Virus record (IMG/VR): IMGVR_UViG_2695420763_000017
Span: 1 to 46,150 of that record
Strand: one strand, 5' to 3'
DNA length: 46,150 nt
Origin: a virus
Lineage: Duplodnaviria; Heunggongvirae; Uroviricota; Caudoviricetes
Notes under the pieces: generated by a model
Seen by the model: only the letters and a program-made list of their open reading frames with translations
What the model was told of the DNA's origin: nothing
Databases searched by the model: none
Program-made: the position numbers and the translations under genes
Shown here: in pieces, positions 41,179-43,423 of the stretch
Layout of the letters: the number at the start of each line of letters is the position of its first letter
How positions within the stretch are numbered: position 1 is the stretch's first letter

Positions 41179-42321
41179 ATGAATAAAACTTTAATTGCAA
41201 CATTAGTCGGTATAGTAATGTTAACCGGATGTGGGCCAGAAGAGTTAACTCCAGAACAGAAACAGGAAGTAGCGGCTCTTAAAGCTGAACTGTCGCAAAC
41301 GGAAGGTGAAATATCAGCAGCTAAGGAAGTTGACCAGCAGTTTTCTGGTGGGTTGATAAAAAATCTGACAACAGCAAGACTGGAAATATTAGGAACTAAT
41401 AAAGCGCTTTTGGAACAGCGTATTAATGCTATTGAATCAGGCGCCAAAATTGATGTTGTTGTATCTGGAGTAAAACCTGATCCTGAGCTTGCTGCTTCAA
41501 TTAAAACTGAAATTGACAGCTTAGATGCAAAAATCAACGAAGCCAAAGCTGATGCTCGTCAGTATAGTGGTGGTCTGATAAAGGTACTAAAATTATCTAC
41601 TGTTGCCACTGAAGAGCAGACTATGGCAATGTTGCAGCAAAAGTACCTCACAGCCAAGTATGGCCTCGCTGAAGTTAAGCTGGCATCAGTACAAGATAAT
41701 GACGCAAAAAACAGTACTGAAACGGAAGTAACAGCCAAAAATTCCCAAGATCAACTTCCTTTACTCCCGCCAGCGGATGGTCCGTTTGGCTTAGAAGCCG
41801 GTTTTACACAGAAAAACATCGAAGATATGATCGGTGCTAAGCTCAAGCCACTACCAGACAGTGTGAATCTGTATACTTCTGATAAATTACCGAAGCAAAA
41901 CGCAGATTTTGAAATGTATGGTTTGTTGATCTCCCCGAAAGCTGGTTTATGTCAAATACGGGCTTTAGGAAAAAATATTGATACTGATAGCTATGGATTG
42001 GCTCTTAAATCCAAGTTTGAAGAATTGAGTAATTCTTTAAGTTCTCTGTATGGAAAGGCTGATACTACAGACTTTTTGCTAGCTGGTTCAATTTGGAAAG
42101 ATCCTCAGGACTGGATGAGGGGGCTAAACAAAAAAGAACGCTTCTTATCTGCCACATGGAAGGGAACAAAAGAAATACCATTAAAAAACAATATTGATAC
42201 TATCTCTATTGAGGCCAGAGCGAACAATTCCACTCAGGGATATGTCTATCTGCAGTACTCATTTACAAATGACGAAATTTGTCAGGCAGAAATTGAAGGG
42301 GCGAAAAAAAGTTCCCTTTAA
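41179..42321 (+). CDS. lipoprotein with internal repeats
   Basis: Signal peptide with lipobox LTGC; two repeats containing Q(F/Y)SGGLIK; AT-rich; 380 aa. Confidence 0.7.
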   Translation: MNKTLIATLVGIVMLTGCGPEELTPEQKQEVAALKAELSQTEGEISAAKEVDQQFSGGLIKNLTTARLEILGTNKALLEQRINAIESGAKIDVVVSGVKPDPELAASIKTEIDSLDAKINEAKADARQYSGGLIKVLKLSTVATEEQTMAMLQQKYLTAKYGLAEVKLASVQDNDAKNSTETEVTAKNSQDQLPLLPPADGPFGLEAGFTQKNIEDMIGAKLKPLPDSVNLYTSDKLPKQNADFEMYGLLISPKAGLCQIRALGKNIDTDSYGLALKSKFEELSNSLSSLYGKADTTDFLLAGSIWKDPQDWMRGLNKKERFLSATWKGTKEIPLKNNIDTISIEARANNSTQGYVYLQYSFTNDEICQAEIEGAKKSSL

Positions 42322-42332
42322 ACAATCCGTGC

Positions 42333-42358
42333 AAAGCCCCTTAGTAAGGGGCTTTTAT
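42333..42358 (+). terminator. intrinsic terminator
   Basis: AAGCCCCTT-AGT-AAGGGGCTT hairpin followed by TTTATAT. Confidence 0.6.
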
Positions 42359-42384
42359 ATATTAATGTCCAACGGGGGGATTAG

Positions 42385-42708
42385 ATGAAAGATAATCTAG
42401 AAAAACTAATTGAAAATACTTTAAAAGATATTCTATTAGCTAATGCTGCTCTAACATTCATTTTTGCAATACCAATGGCTATTATCAGTAGGCATGGGAT
42501 GGGCATCACAATCTGGTTTATAACTGTGCTCATTGCACCTGCTCTGTGTGCAGTAGGTGCATGGCTTGTATCTCGAACATTCGGCCATGCTGAGGAGTTC
42601 TTTCATCGTCGGTGGGCTAAGCGAATTTATGTTTTTTATACTCTTGCGGCTGCCGAGTTTTTGCTTGTGTACTCAATCGCGCAAATAATGAAAAATCTGA
42701 TGAAATAA
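42385..42708 (+). CDS. small membrane protein (about 3 TM)
   Basis: GGGGGGA RBS then ATG 42385; hydrophobic helices. Confidence 0.6.
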   Translation: MKDNLEKLIENTLKDILLANAALTFIFAIPMAIISRHGMGITIWFITVLIAPALCAVGAWLVSRTFGHAEEFFHRRWAKRIYVFYTLAAAEFLLVYSIAQIMKNLMK

Positions 42709-42750
42709 TTAACAAGTTATTATCATGGGGTTTGTGGCTGTTAACCTGCA

Positions 42751-42990
42751 GTGAGGCGACAATCGTGTATTTATAAAAACTTCCCCTTTTCACTCCCCGC
42801 TGTTTCTTCTGCTATTGCCTTTATGTTTGCATGCACCAACATCTGCCATACCTTTGCAGAAAAATCAGAGCATTCAGTGCCGAAGGTTGGTTTATTGATG
42901 CTTTTCGTTTCATTTATTGCAATTGTCTCTGGTATCATTTCAATTTGTGCAATAATTGCAATTATTGTCATTCAGAAGGGATCATCATGA
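42751..42990 (+). CDS. small hydrophobic protein (start uncertain)
   Basis: C-terminal TM helix LLMLFVSFIAIVSGIISICAIIAIIVI; AT-rich; several candidate starts. Confidence 0.35.
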   Translation: MRRQSCIYKNFPFSLPAVSSAIAFMFACTNICHTFAEKSEHSVPKVGLLMLFVSFIAIVSGIISICAIIAIIVIQKGSS

Positions 42991-43154
42991 AAAATCACGG
43001 AGTAAAGCCAGTTTTACTTTCCCGGAGGCAGATCGAAGCCCTGCAACGCATCCAGGACGAAGAGCGTCAGAAATCTGTGCTTGGTGTGGCACCGTCGATT
43101 CATGTTACTGCCCGGCAACTGATGGATAAGGCACTTAAAGAGGTGAGGCTGTGA
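42987..43154 (+). CDS. small hypothetical protein (55 aa)
   Basis: AGAAGGG RBS 6 nt upstream of ATG 42987, overlapping upstream stop (ATGA). Confidence 0.4.
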   Translation: MKNHGVKPVLLSRRQIEALQRIQDEERQKSVLGVAPSIHVTARQLMDKALKEVRL

Positions 43155-43423
43155 AATTAAATATCAGAGTGGATAAACGCCAGCTATGGCAGAAAAAAGA
43201 GAACAGCGAGGCATTCAGGGCTTTGCTGGTAGAAAATCTTCGGCACCGGTTCAGTGGAGAGTTGCCAGATGCACTGGGGAAGAAACTGGAATCCCTGACA
43301 GTGGAAATTGGCGATTATGGCTTTGTTGATGTTGAAAGCACGACTGCCAACACAGAAATCGTAAAACAGGTCGTCAATGATGTAATGAAAACCACGCTTA
43401 GCCAGCCATCCTGGCGCAACTGA
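43151..43423 (+). CDS. DinI-like protein (tentative)
   Basis: About 90 aa; pattern MKLNIRV...ALLVENLRHRF...VKQVVNDVM loosely parallels DinI/MsgA from memory. Confidence 0.4.
   Translation: MKLNIRVDKRQLWQKKENSEAFRALLVENLRHRFSGELPDALGKKLESLTVEIGDYGFVDVESTTANTEIVKQVVNDVMKTTLSQPSWRN

What the first reader, a model, noticed from the sequence alone, without database searches (positions are those of the whole stretch)
41179..43423. AT-rich block of lipoprotein, membrane proteins and a DinI-like gene after the regulatory module
Seen: a 380-aa lipoprotein (lipobox LTGC) with two internal Q(F/Y)SGGLIK repeats, a terminator, then three small hydrophobic or basic ORFs and a possible DinI-like protein, all overlapping or tightly spaced. 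Inference: envelope-associated accessory functions such as receptor masking or superinfection exclusion, plus an SOS modulator.
Basis: inference. Interest (0 to 1): 0.45.

Follow-up and report, generated by a model that had tools for sequence, protein, structure and literature searches.

The report
Satellite-borne lipoprotein cassette plus backbone genes
The region is not one unit: an AT-rich, self-contained add-on cassette (an uncharacterised outer-membrane lipoprotein plus a small inner-membrane protein) sits inside an E. coli phage-satellite island, next to two of the island's own small genes; the lipoprotein's function is untested and the proposed DinI link has no sequence support.

Summary
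The 380-aa lipoprotein (lipobox LTGC), its two Q(F/Y)SGGLIK motifs (a real internal duplication, z=9.7) and the terminator at 42333-42355 are all present. The block is composite, though.

**(A) Accessory cassette, 41019 to about 42936 (GC 0.39).**
- It is absent from a collinear sister island, E. coli AH01.
- It carries the lipoprotein gene, with a conserved extended -10-like element upstream and its own terminator, followed by a 107-aa three-TM protein.

**(B) Island backbone genes, 42987-43423 (GC 0.47-0.51).**
- These are a 55-aa basic protein that looks ribbon-helix-helix by eye and a 90-aa protein under purifying selection.
- They lie just upstream of a TerS-like wHTH gene.

**Other findings.**
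- The third "hydrophobic ORF" (79 aa on +, 66 aa on -) is probably not a gene. Its hydrophobic tail is the translation of operator-like repeats.
- The lipoprotein has a helical-hairpin stalk, a disordered linker and a globular C-domain with a probable disulfide (model pLDDT 96).
- The profile finds 2,872 cluster representatives, but no consistent gene neighbour among the C-domain loci sampled.
- In Enterobacterales the gene rides PICI/P4-like satellites and one prophage.
- DinI-likeness of the 90-aa protein fails every sequence test.
- Superinfection exclusion is plausible but untested.

The parts
41019..42936 (.). AT-rich accessory cassette (GC 0.393) inserted between the PerC-like gene and the 55-aa gene of the island
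   Evidence: Alignment with the cassette-less sister island E. coli AH01 (L015): homology stops at window 41018 and resumes at 42937, or at 42898 against TUM9757. GC values.
41139..41147 (+). Extended -10-like promoter element TGaTAAGAT, about 32 nt upstream of the lipoprotein ATG (inferred promoter)
   Evidence: TGnTA(A/G)GAT and the flanking ~45 nt are conserved upstream of the lipoprotein gene in E. coli, Klebsiella and Enterobacter, although the upstream genes differ (alignment A5). The strict sigma-70 scan did not call it.
41179..42321 (+). 380-aa lipoprotein gene. Signal peptide and lipobox aa 1-18. Helical-hairpin N-domain aa ~22-162, with QQFSGGLIK at 41335-41361 and RQYSGGLIK at 41557-41583. 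Disordered linker aa 164-200. Globular alpha/beta C-domain aa ~200-380 (nt 41776-42318) with covarying Cys258/Cys368.
   Evidence: Purifying selection between E. coli variants: 8 synonymous to 3 non-synonymous codons and 5 to 3.
42333..42355 (+). Intrinsic terminator hairpin directly after the lipoprotein gene
   Evidence: 10-bp stem followed by a T-rich tail. dG -14.5 kcal/mol. The stem is conserved in Klebsiella L017.
42385..42708 (+). 107-aa, pI 9.5, three-TM small inner-membrane protein. Hydrophobic segments about 15-34, 39-62 and 81-101, with a positively charged loop at 63-80.
   Evidence: Hydropathy and the Shine-Dalgarno sequence GGGGGGA. 68% identical, same length and same 63-nt spacing downstream of the lipoprotein gene in Klebsiella. 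Present in E. ruysiae. No family hit.
42751..42990 (+). Doubtful 79-aa ORF (GTG start). The overlapping 66-aa ORF on the minus strand (42771-42971) is the one RefSeq annotates. Probably non-coding.
   Evidence: No Shine-Dalgarno sequence for either. Substitutions are spread evenly over codon positions in both frames. No homologue in the non-Escherichia loci fetched. The 3' third overlaps the repeats below.
42905..42967 (.). Operator-like repeats upstream of the 55-aa gene: TCnTTTCAnTTnTTGCAAT twice, 30 nt apart, and the perfect palindrome CAATAATTG|CAATTATTG (42950-42967)
   Evidence: TGCAAT-containing motifs also occur at the same place in AH01.
42987..43154 (+). 55-aa basic protein (pI 10.5) of the island backbone. 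The ribbon-helix-helix-like pattern was judged by eye only.
   Evidence: Present in the cassette-less AH01 and TUM9757 islands and, at 53-65% identity, in Tatumella, Pantoea septica and an uncultured Enterobacterales satellite. No Pfam, PHROG or PDB hit.
43151..43423 (+). 90-aa protein of unknown function. Its GTG start overlaps the stop of the 55-aa gene.
   Evidence: Purifying selection: 10 synonymous to 1 non-synonymous and 4 to 0. Only 9 clusters in 5.8 billion proteins. DinI tests negative.
43430..43450 (+). Hairpin after the 90-aa gene (8-bp G+C-rich stem, poor T tail)
   Evidence: RNAfold dG -12.5 kcal/mol. The terminator scan did not call it.
43505..44050 (+). Context only: 181-aa winged-HTH protein resembling small terminase or excisionase, in the position where E. 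coli PICIs carry rpp
   Evidence: HTH_17 1.9e-4, below Pfam's cutoff. phrog_57 terminase small subunit 1.8e-6. No sequence hit to solved RppC. Highly divergent between islands.

Best explanation
The finding spans two different things inside a PICI-type phage satellite island (integrase 31733-32947 through 46150).

**(1) The accessory cassette, 41019 to about 42936.**
- It is a moron-like cassette: low GC, a conserved extended -10-like element upstream, its own terminator, and presence/absence variation between otherwise collinear islands.
- Its main product is a lipoprotein. Because residue +2 after the lipid-modified Cys is Gly rather than Asp, it should be sorted to the outer membrane and face the periplasm.
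- The protein has a stalk made of two duplicated helical hairpins, then a ~35-residue flexible linker, then a compact 180-residue alpha/beta domain stabilised by a disulfide.
- A 107-aa three-TM inner-membrane protein lies behind the terminator. It is presumably made at a lower level by read-through.

**Inferred mechanism.** The cassette is transcribed independently of satellite induction while the island sits in the chromosome. The C-domain binds a conserved envelope component. This changes the cell surface or periplasm so as to protect the carrier, most plausibly by excluding superinfecting phages at adsorption or DNA entry, as Llp, Cor and Ltp do.

**(2) The backbone genes, 42987-43423.**
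- The 55-aa protein is probably a small DNA-binding regulator acting on the repeats and palindrome just upstream of its own gene.
- The 90-aa protein occupies the slot just upstream of the TerS-like gene, where a sister island instead carries a head-protease-like pair. It is most likely a helper-phage exploitation or interference factor, not an SOS modulator.

**Shown:** anatomy, modularity, conservation, extracytoplasmic features and carriers. **Inferred:** promoter activity, localisation, binding target and any exclusion phenotype.
For: **Cassette is optional and self-contained**
- It is absent from AH01, where the PerC-like gene is followed directly by the 55-aa gene.
- GC is 0.39, against 0.47-0.57 in the flanks.
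- A TGnTA(A/G)GAT element is conserved upstream in three genera with different upstream genes.
- The terminator is present and conserved.

**Extracytoplasmic lipoprotein**
- The lipobox is invariant.
- Cys258 and Cys368 are kept or lost together: 53 sequences with both, 11 with neither, 6 with one.
- Standalone C-domain relatives have hydrophobic N-termini.

**Modular envelope protein**
- The N-domain and C-domain each occur alone.
- The N-domain also occurs fused to VasI, and within a protein annotated as containing a peptidoglycan-binding domain.

**Structure**
- C-domain model pLDDT 96.4.

**Carriers are mobile elements**
- E. coli PICIs at two chromosomal sites.
- Enterobacter, Pantoea septica and Tatumella P4-type satellites, directly after the primase.
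- An Erwinia prophage, between the major tail and tape-measure genes.

**Conservation**
- 88% identity across genera suggests a conserved host target rather than a fast-evolving phage protein.

**Backbone status of the small genes**
- The alternative occupants of the slot resemble a head protease.
- The periplasmic exclusion lipoprotein precedent is T5 Llp (PMC9586334); the Ltp precedent is PMC3952083.
Against: - No homology or family match to any known exclusion, defence or surface-exclusion protein in Pfam, PHROGs, NCBIfam or PADLOC.
- The protein is five to six times larger than Llp or Cor.
- No sequenced phage in the phage collection carries it.
- In Pantoea agglomerans-group genomes it sits at a fixed chromosomal site next to folD, with no obvious mobile element. 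The wider C-domain family has no consistent neighbours. Both fit a general periplasmic role as well as they fit anti-phage function.
- The promoter is inferred from conservation only, and the strict promoter scan missed it.
- By the positive-inside rule the 107-aa protein exposes almost nothing to the periplasm, so a physical partnership with the lipoprotein is doubtful. It accompanies the lipoprotein only in Escherichia and Klebsiella.
Confidence: 0.4

Rival explanations
1. The lipoprotein is a general envelope fitness or virulence factor (for example stress tolerance, serum or antimicrobial-peptide resistance, envelope homeostasis) that mobile elements merely carry as cargo, with no role in phage exclusion.
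For: - The profile search finds 2,872 cluster representatives, and the loci recovered span many phyla.
- The C-domain family has no conserved neighbour and no defence-system signal.
- It sits at a fixed chromosomal location in four Pantoea genomes.
- Its sequence is conservative across genera.
- It lies next to a PerC-like regulator, a family linked to virulence regulation (PMC11773190).
Against: - In Enterobacterales its carriers are overwhelmingly satellites or a prophage, and it occupies the same slot in several satellite lineages.
Confidence: 0.25
2. The lipoprotein is an orphan periplasmic immunity or protection protein against envelope-acting toxins delivered by competitors (type VI effectors, colicins, contact-dependent toxins).
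For: - The N-domain is fused to the type VI-associated VasI domain in one relative, and a VasI protein is the neighbour in Pigmentiphaga.
Against: - Neighbours of 46 loci show no Hcp, VgrG, PAAR, Rhs or effector enrichment: 124 families, none present in more than 2 members.
- Several of the matched immunity proteins are cytoplasmic, whereas this protein is exported.
Confidence: 0.12
3. The lipoprotein, with or without the 107-aa protein, serves the satellite's own cycle. It might time or modify helper-induced lysis, or stop released particles re-adsorbing to debris, so it would be expressed on induction rather than constitutively.
For: - It has the same position (after the primase or PerC-like gene, before the 55-aa gene) in several satellite lineages.
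- Its divergence is similar to that of the backbone 55-aa gene: 58-61% against 55-62%. This suggests long co-residence with the satellite.
- An outer-membrane lipoprotein paired with an inner-membrane protein recalls spanin and lysis modules.
Against: - Its own terminator and conserved promoter-like element argue for autonomous expression.
- Sister islands work without it, or at least exist without it.
- It has no C-terminal TM segment, so it is not a unimolecular spanin. The 107-aa protein lacks holin features and holin PHROG hits.
Confidence: 0.1
4. The 90-aa protein (43151-43423) is a DinI-like modulator of RecA and the SOS response.
For: - Its size is similar (90 against 81 aa).
- By eye its hydrophobic pattern is compatible with the beta-alpha-beta-beta-alpha order of DinI.
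- DinI-like genes are common in prophages (general knowledge).
Against: - No Pfam DinI hit at E<=10.
- No DinI structure among the PDB sequence hits.
- BLASTP found no alignment, and hhalign gave probability 0.4%.
- It lacks DinI's acidic C-terminal helix (pI 8.2).
- The family has only 9 clusters and is confined to this satellite slot.
Confidence: 0.08

Closest known systems
Phage T5 Llp and the phi80/N15 Cor exclusion lipoproteins
   Same: They are encoded by mobile elements, are lipoproteins, and act from the periplasmic face of the outer membrane to protect the carrier. Llp is periplasmic and jams FhuA (PMC9586334).
   Different: There is no sequence or family similarity. Llp and Cor are about 60-80 residues and single-domain. 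This protein is 380 aa, with a helical stalk, a linker and a 180-aa alpha/beta head. Its target is unknown and its phenotype is untested.
Ltp-type superinfection-exclusion lipoproteins of Streptococcus thermophilus phages (TP-J34)
   Same: A lipid anchor, a spacer and a tandemly duplicated helical module, encoded by a temperate element. Ltp is reported to target the tape measure protein (PMC3952083 and my own recollection of the primary paper). Some relatives of this gene lie next to tape-measure genes.
   Different: Ltp comes from Gram-positive hosts and is surface-exposed. No sequence match was found. Structural comparison with Ltp could not be run separately for the N-domain.
Morons and accessory cargo of phage satellites (PICIs and P4-like elements)
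   Same: An optional insert with atypical GC, a conserved promoter-like element and its own terminator, at a fixed slot in the element. Sister islands carry other cargo, and the same island has a second variable slot holding defence-type genes.
   Different: Characterised satellite cargo consists mostly of cytoplasmic defence systems. An envelope lipoprotein of this family has not been described: no paper cites its accessions.
DcrB / PsbP / Mog1-class periplasmic and immunity proteins
DinI (E. coli SOS modulator)
   Same: A small protein of similar length encoded on a mobile element.
   Different: All sequence and profile tests were negative. It is basic rather than acidic.

Membership tests
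Bacterial lipoproteins (Lol-sorted, outer membrane) | N-terminal signal peptide ending in a lipobox [LVI][ASTVI][GAS]C | tested here: met
   MNK + hydrophobic TLIATLVGIVM + L-T-G-C. G17, C18, G19 and P20 are invariant in 23 homologues.
Bacterial lipoproteins (Lol-sorted, outer membrane) | No Asp at position +2 after the lipidated Cys (which would retain the protein in the inner membrane) | tested here: met
   Position +2 is Gly and +3 is Pro, both invariant. Actual localisation cannot be tested with these tools.
Known exclusion or surface lipoproteins (Llp, Cor, TraT, Bor) | Sequence or profile similarity to the family | tested here: not met
   Pfam-A (E<=0.1), PHROGs, NCBIfam and PADLOC give no such hit for the 380-aa protein.
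Known exclusion or surface lipoproteins (Llp, Cor, TraT, Bor) | Reduces adsorption or DNA entry of specific phages when expressed | not testable with these tools
   Needs plating-efficiency and adsorption assays.
Moron (autonomous accessory transcription unit in a phage or satellite) | Presence/absence polymorphism between otherwise collinear elements, with atypical base composition | tested here: met
   AH01 lacks window 41019-42936. GC is 0.39 against 0.47-0.57.
Moron (autonomous accessory transcription unit in a phage or satellite) | Own promoter and own terminator | tested here: inconclusive
   The terminator is clear and conserved. The promoter is only a conserved TGnTA(A/G)GAT element that the strict scan did not call, and there are no expression data.
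DinI family (Pfam PF06183) | Match to the DinI profile or sequence | tested here: not met
   No Pfam hit at E<=10. BLASTP found no alignment. hhalign probability 0.4%. No DinI among the PDB hits.
DinI family (Pfam PF06183) | DinI fold (beta-alpha-beta-beta-alpha) with an acidic C-terminal helix that contacts RecA | not tested
The protein's pI of 8.2 argues against an acidic helix.
PICI (phage-inducible chromosomal island) of Gram-negative bacteria: context of the block | Integrase, AlpA/HTH regulator, primase-type replication module and a TerS-directed packaging gene, with no structural or lysis genes, about 10-15 kb, at a specific attachment site | tested here: inconclusive
   - Integrase, AntA/B antirepressor, primase, ProQ/FinO, PerC-like and a TerS-like wHTH gene are present.
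- Sister islands sit at tRNA-Thr next to proA, the site of EcCIMP1 (PMC11773190).
- The wHTH protein shows no sequence match to solved RppC.
- Induction and packaging were not tested.
Type II toxin-antitoxin pair (55-aa plus 90-aa genes) | Obligatory co-occurrence of a small DNA-binding antitoxin with its toxin, and a match to a known toxin family | tested here: not met
   The 55-aa gene is followed by different genes in other satellites. The 90-aa protein matches no toxin family.
Spanin or holin lysis proteins | Outer-membrane lipoprotein partnered with an inner-membrane coiled-coil protein, or a lipoprotein with a C-terminal TM segment; for a holin, TM segments plus a charged C-terminal tail and a PHROG or Pfam match | tested here: not met
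   The lipoprotein has no TM segment beyond its signal peptide. The 107-aa protein has a 6-residue tail and no holin hits.

The most novel reading that the evidence does not exclude
The lipoprotein, possibly together with the 107-aa membrane protein, founds a new family of envelope-level anti-phage or exclusion factors carried by PICI/P4-like satellites and prophages of Enterobacterales. It is built from two domains with no Pfam model: a lipid-anchored helical-hairpin stalk that presents interchangeable periplasmic heads, and a PsbP/DcrB-class head stabilised by a disulfide. The head would disable a conserved envelope component that phages need for adsorption or DNA entry, for example the route used by the tape measure protein.
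Probability: 0.22. Interest if true: 0.6.

Novelty: new member of a known kind. Interest (0 to 1): 0.35.

Why it matters
Phage satellites are known to carry cytoplasmic defence systems as cargo. Envelope-level functions on satellites are much less explored. If this lipoprotein blocks phage entry, it would add a large uncharacterised family (2,872 cluster representatives, no Pfam model for either domain) to the set of exclusion proteins. It would also give a function to a gene present in about 2% of complete E. coli genomes, including O104:H4 outbreak strains. More immediately, the work corrects the annotation of this stretch:
- the cassette boundaries are defined;
- one annotated small ORF is probably a regulatory region;
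- the 55-aa and 90-aa genes are assigned to the satellite backbone rather than to an SOS function.

Tried and rejected
- **Family scans.** Pfam, PHROGs, NCBIfam and PADLOC gave nothing for the lipoprotein, the 107-aa, 55-aa and 90-aa proteins.
- **PDB sequence searches.** The lipoprotein profile and the 90-aa, 55-aa and 181-aa proteins returned only chance hits: designed coiled coils, and leucine-rich-repeat kinases matching a short 'FSGELP' motif.
- **Toxin-antitoxin idea for the 55-aa/90-aa pair.** Rejected, because the 55-aa gene pairs with other genes elsewhere.
- **Spanin or holin idea.** Rejected on topology and the lack of family hits.
- **Type VI immunity idea.** Tested by scanning 143 neighbours of 46 loci, with no enrichment.
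- **The 107-aa protein in Pantoea.** The 107-aa ORFs near the Pantoea homologue are unrelated to the window's 107-aa protein.
- **Rfam.** No RNA family in 40000-46150.
- **Literature.** No paper cites the RefSeq accessions of these proteins.
- **Technical failure.** The first attempt at search for related loci with the broad alignment failed for lack of conserved stretches. A narrower alignment worked.
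Full report
**Context**

The window is E. coli DNA. Positions 1 to about 31000 are a prophage: all large ORFs are on the + strand, and a tail-fibre assembly gene lies at 25390-25977. From the integrase at 31733-32947 to the window end runs an island of about 14 kb. Its genes are an integrase, an HTH regulator, an AntA/B antirepressor, a primase (38041-39846), ProQ/FinO (40218-40760; Pfam 2.9e-22), a PerC-like gene (40757-41044; 3.8e-32), the block under study, a TerS-like wHTH gene (43505-44050; phrog_57 1.8e-6, HTH_17 1.9e-4) and two cargo genes.

Near-identical islands sit at tRNA-Thr next to proA in other E. coli. That is the site and gene content of the described PICI EcCIMP1 (PMC11773190). 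The 2.4-kb block occurs in 132 of 5,426 complete E. coli genomes, always on the chromosome, and all five genes are annotated 'hypothetical'.

**The observation**

- The 380-aa ORF, its lipobox (MNKTLIATLVGIVMLTG-C), the two Q(F/Y)SGGLIK motifs and the terminator are all there.
- The motifs mark a real duplication. The two halves of the N-terminal region align with score 76, against 27.5 +/- 5 for shuffles, z = 9.7.
- The terminator (42333-42355, dG -14.5 kcal/mol) is conserved in Klebsiella with a different loop.
- Low GC (0.39) applies only to 41019-42986. The 55-aa and 90-aa genes have GC 0.51 and 0.47, like the backbone.

**The block is composite**

In E. coli AH01 a collinear island goes straight from the PerC-like gene to the 55-aa, 90-aa and wHTH genes. 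Homology with the window stops at 41018 and resumes at 42937.

So 41019 to about 42936 is an optional cassette, and the 55-aa and 90-aa genes are backbone. In TUM9757 the same backbone has neither the cassette nor the 90-aa gene. Between a 57-aa homologue of the 55-aa gene and the wHTH gene it instead carries a 192-aa protein and a DUF2213 protein, which is related to head maturation proteases.

**The cassette**

*Expression signals.*
- Upstream of the lipoprotein gene, a ~45-nt segment containing TGnTA(A/G)GAT (window 41139-47) is conserved in E. coli, Klebsiella and Enterobacter, although the preceding genes differ.
- I read this as an extended -10 promoter. That is an inference, and the strict scan did not list it.
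- With the terminator, this gives the classic moron layout.

*The 107-aa ORF.*
- It has a strong Shine-Dalgarno sequence, three hydrophobic segments and a positively charged loop at 63-80.
- It is conserved at 68% identity, with the same length and spacing, behind the lipoprotein gene in Klebsiella and in E. ruysiae.
- It is absent behind the lipoprotein homologues of Enterobacter, Pantoea and Tatumella.

*The next ORF is doubtful.* This is the 79-aa ORF on +, or the 66-aa ORF on - that RefSeq annotates.
- It has no Shine-Dalgarno sequence.
- Its substitutions are spread evenly over codon positions.
- It has no counterpart in the non-Escherichia loci fetched.
- Its hydrophobic tail (IAIVSGIISICAIIAIIVI) is the translation of 42905-42967. 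That stretch holds two 19-nt repeats 30 nt apart and the perfect palindrome CAATAATTG|CAATTATTG, directly upstream of the 55-aa gene. It looks like an operator.

**The lipoprotein**

*Domain organisation.*
- Homologues of 59-89% identity are found across Enterobacterales, and none is named.
- A profile search of 1.84 billion cluster representatives finds 2,872 relatives and shows two independent domains.
- Profile positions 1-170 (the stalk) occur alone, fused to VasI (PF11319; P0167), or within a protein annotated as containing a peptidoglycan-binding domain.
- Positions 195-379 (the head) occur alone as proteins of about 200 aa with hydrophobic N-termini, or behind other anchors.
- Neither domain has a Pfam model.

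*Structure models.*
- The full-length model has two helical hairpins (helices 25-54/59-87 and 102-126/133-161), a disordered linker at 164-200 and an alpha/beta domain.
- Modelled alone with 70 diverse sequences, the head reaches pLDDT 96.4.
- This is a generic protein-binding sandwich class, not a homologue.

*Location in the cell.*
- The two cysteines of the head are kept or lost together: 53 sequences with both, 11 with neither, 6 with one. That indicates a disulfide and therefore an extracytoplasmic location.
- Gly at +2 predicts sorting to the outer membrane. This follows from the established Lol-avoidance rule and was not tested here.

**Where the gene travels**

- In E. coli it is found in PICIs with two different primase types, at two chromosomal sites.
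- In Enterobacter hormaechei it lies directly after a Toprim/DUF927 primase in an AlpA/AntA/Ash satellite.
- In Pantoea septica and Tatumella it follows the primase (with a PerC-like gene in P. septica) and precedes a homologue of the 55-aa gene. That is the same slot as in the window.
- In an Erwinia prophage it lies between the major tail and tape-measure genes.
- In Pantoea agglomerans-group genomes it is at a fixed chromosomal site near folD.
- It is absent from 50,697 phage records and rare on plasmids.
- For 46 diverse C-domain loci, 143 neighbouring proteins hit 124 Pfam families, none more than twice, and no type VI secretion components. Some standalone relatives sit beside defence-type genes.

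**The two backbone genes**

*The 55-aa protein.*
- It is basic and conserved in six satellites, with the pattern VKPVLL-x3-Q-x3-L-x3-Q-x2-ER-x2-S-x-L-x3-P-x2-H-x2-AR-x2-M-x2-AL.
- By eye this is strand-helix-helix, like ribbon-helix-helix regulators. No profile confirms that.

*The 90-aa protein.*
- It is under strong purifying selection: 10 synonymous to 1 non-synonymous codon changes, and 4 to 0.
- It belongs to only 9 clusters among 5.8 billion proteins.
- It fails every DinI sequence test. The fold was not tested.
- Its slot is occupied elsewhere by head-protease-like genes. That, and its position just upstream of the TerS-like gene, suggest a helper-exploitation role. This is an inference.

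**Mechanism and verdict**

The best-supported reading is an autonomous accessory cassette whose lipoprotein acts in the periplasm on a conserved envelope component. Phage exclusion is the most plausible benefit, given the carriers and the precedents Llp (PMC9586334) and Ltp (PMC3952083). I put this at about 0.4. A general envelope fitness role comes next at about 0.25.

The DinI idea is unsupported, and the unit boundaries need revising. This is a new, uncharacterised member of a known kind of thing: accessory cargo on a phage satellite. Interest is moderate.

Noticed in passing
window 43505-44050: The TerS-like wHTH gene is a divergence hotspot. Against the island of strain 357900 it has 35 synonymous and 40 non-synonymous codon changes, while the adjacent 90-aa gene has 10 and 1. 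Alleles differ by 14-21% in protein sequence between islands whose upstream block is near-identical. This could reflect co-evolution with helper terminases.
   Followed up: partly
window 44543-46150: Two cargo genes (275 aa phrog_13337 and 259 aa phrog_8999, GC 0.33) fill the slot where sister islands carry methyltransferase+DUF262+HEPN, SIR2 plus a partner, or a zinc-ribbon pair. This looks like the island's variable defence hotspot. There is only a weak PADLOC hit, PDC-M02B at 2.4e-4.
   Followed up: partly
window 42905-42967: Operator-like architecture upstream of the 55-aa gene: two 19-nt repeats 30 nt apart and a perfect 18-nt palindrome, CAATAATTGCAATTATTG. TGCAAT motifs recur at the same place in the AH01 island.
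   Followed up: partly
window 35169-36755: A 528-aa ORF with no Pfam match lies where sister islands (L001, L002, L012) have several small genes, including an Icd-like division inhibitor.
   Followed up: no
window 1-31700: A co-oriented prophage lies directly upstream of the satellite integrase. After its tail-fibre assembly gene (25390-25977) comes AT-rich cargo, including a PglD-like hexapeptide acyltransferase (26192-26881) and a MaoC-type dehydratase (26883-27308). The window has no tRNA, although sister islands abut tRNA-Thr. This suggests tandem integration at one attachment site, as with the lambdoid prophage in strain EC20.
   Followed up: partly
L033 7217-10822; L034 6691-9960; L025 7243-9813: In the Tatumella and Xenorhabdus loci a 1,090-1,202-aa protein with a tape-measure N-terminal domain (TMP_3) follows the lipoprotein gene; in Tatumella a 55-aa gene homologue lies between them. 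Pantoea septica has an 857-aa protein with no Pfam hit in that place. In Tatumella and P. septica the element is primase-bearing; no primase was identified in the Xenorhabdus locus, which may be a prophage. A tape-measure-like gene in a primase-bearing satellite-like element is unusual.
   Followed up: no
P0167; L014 4943-5665; plasmid hit H65 (NZ_CP115770.1): The helical-hairpin stalk domain recombines with other periplasmic heads. It is fused to a VasI domain and lies within a protein annotated as containing a peptidoglycan-binding domain. A VasI protein is also the neighbour of a standalone C-domain gene in Pigmentiphaga.
   Followed up: partly
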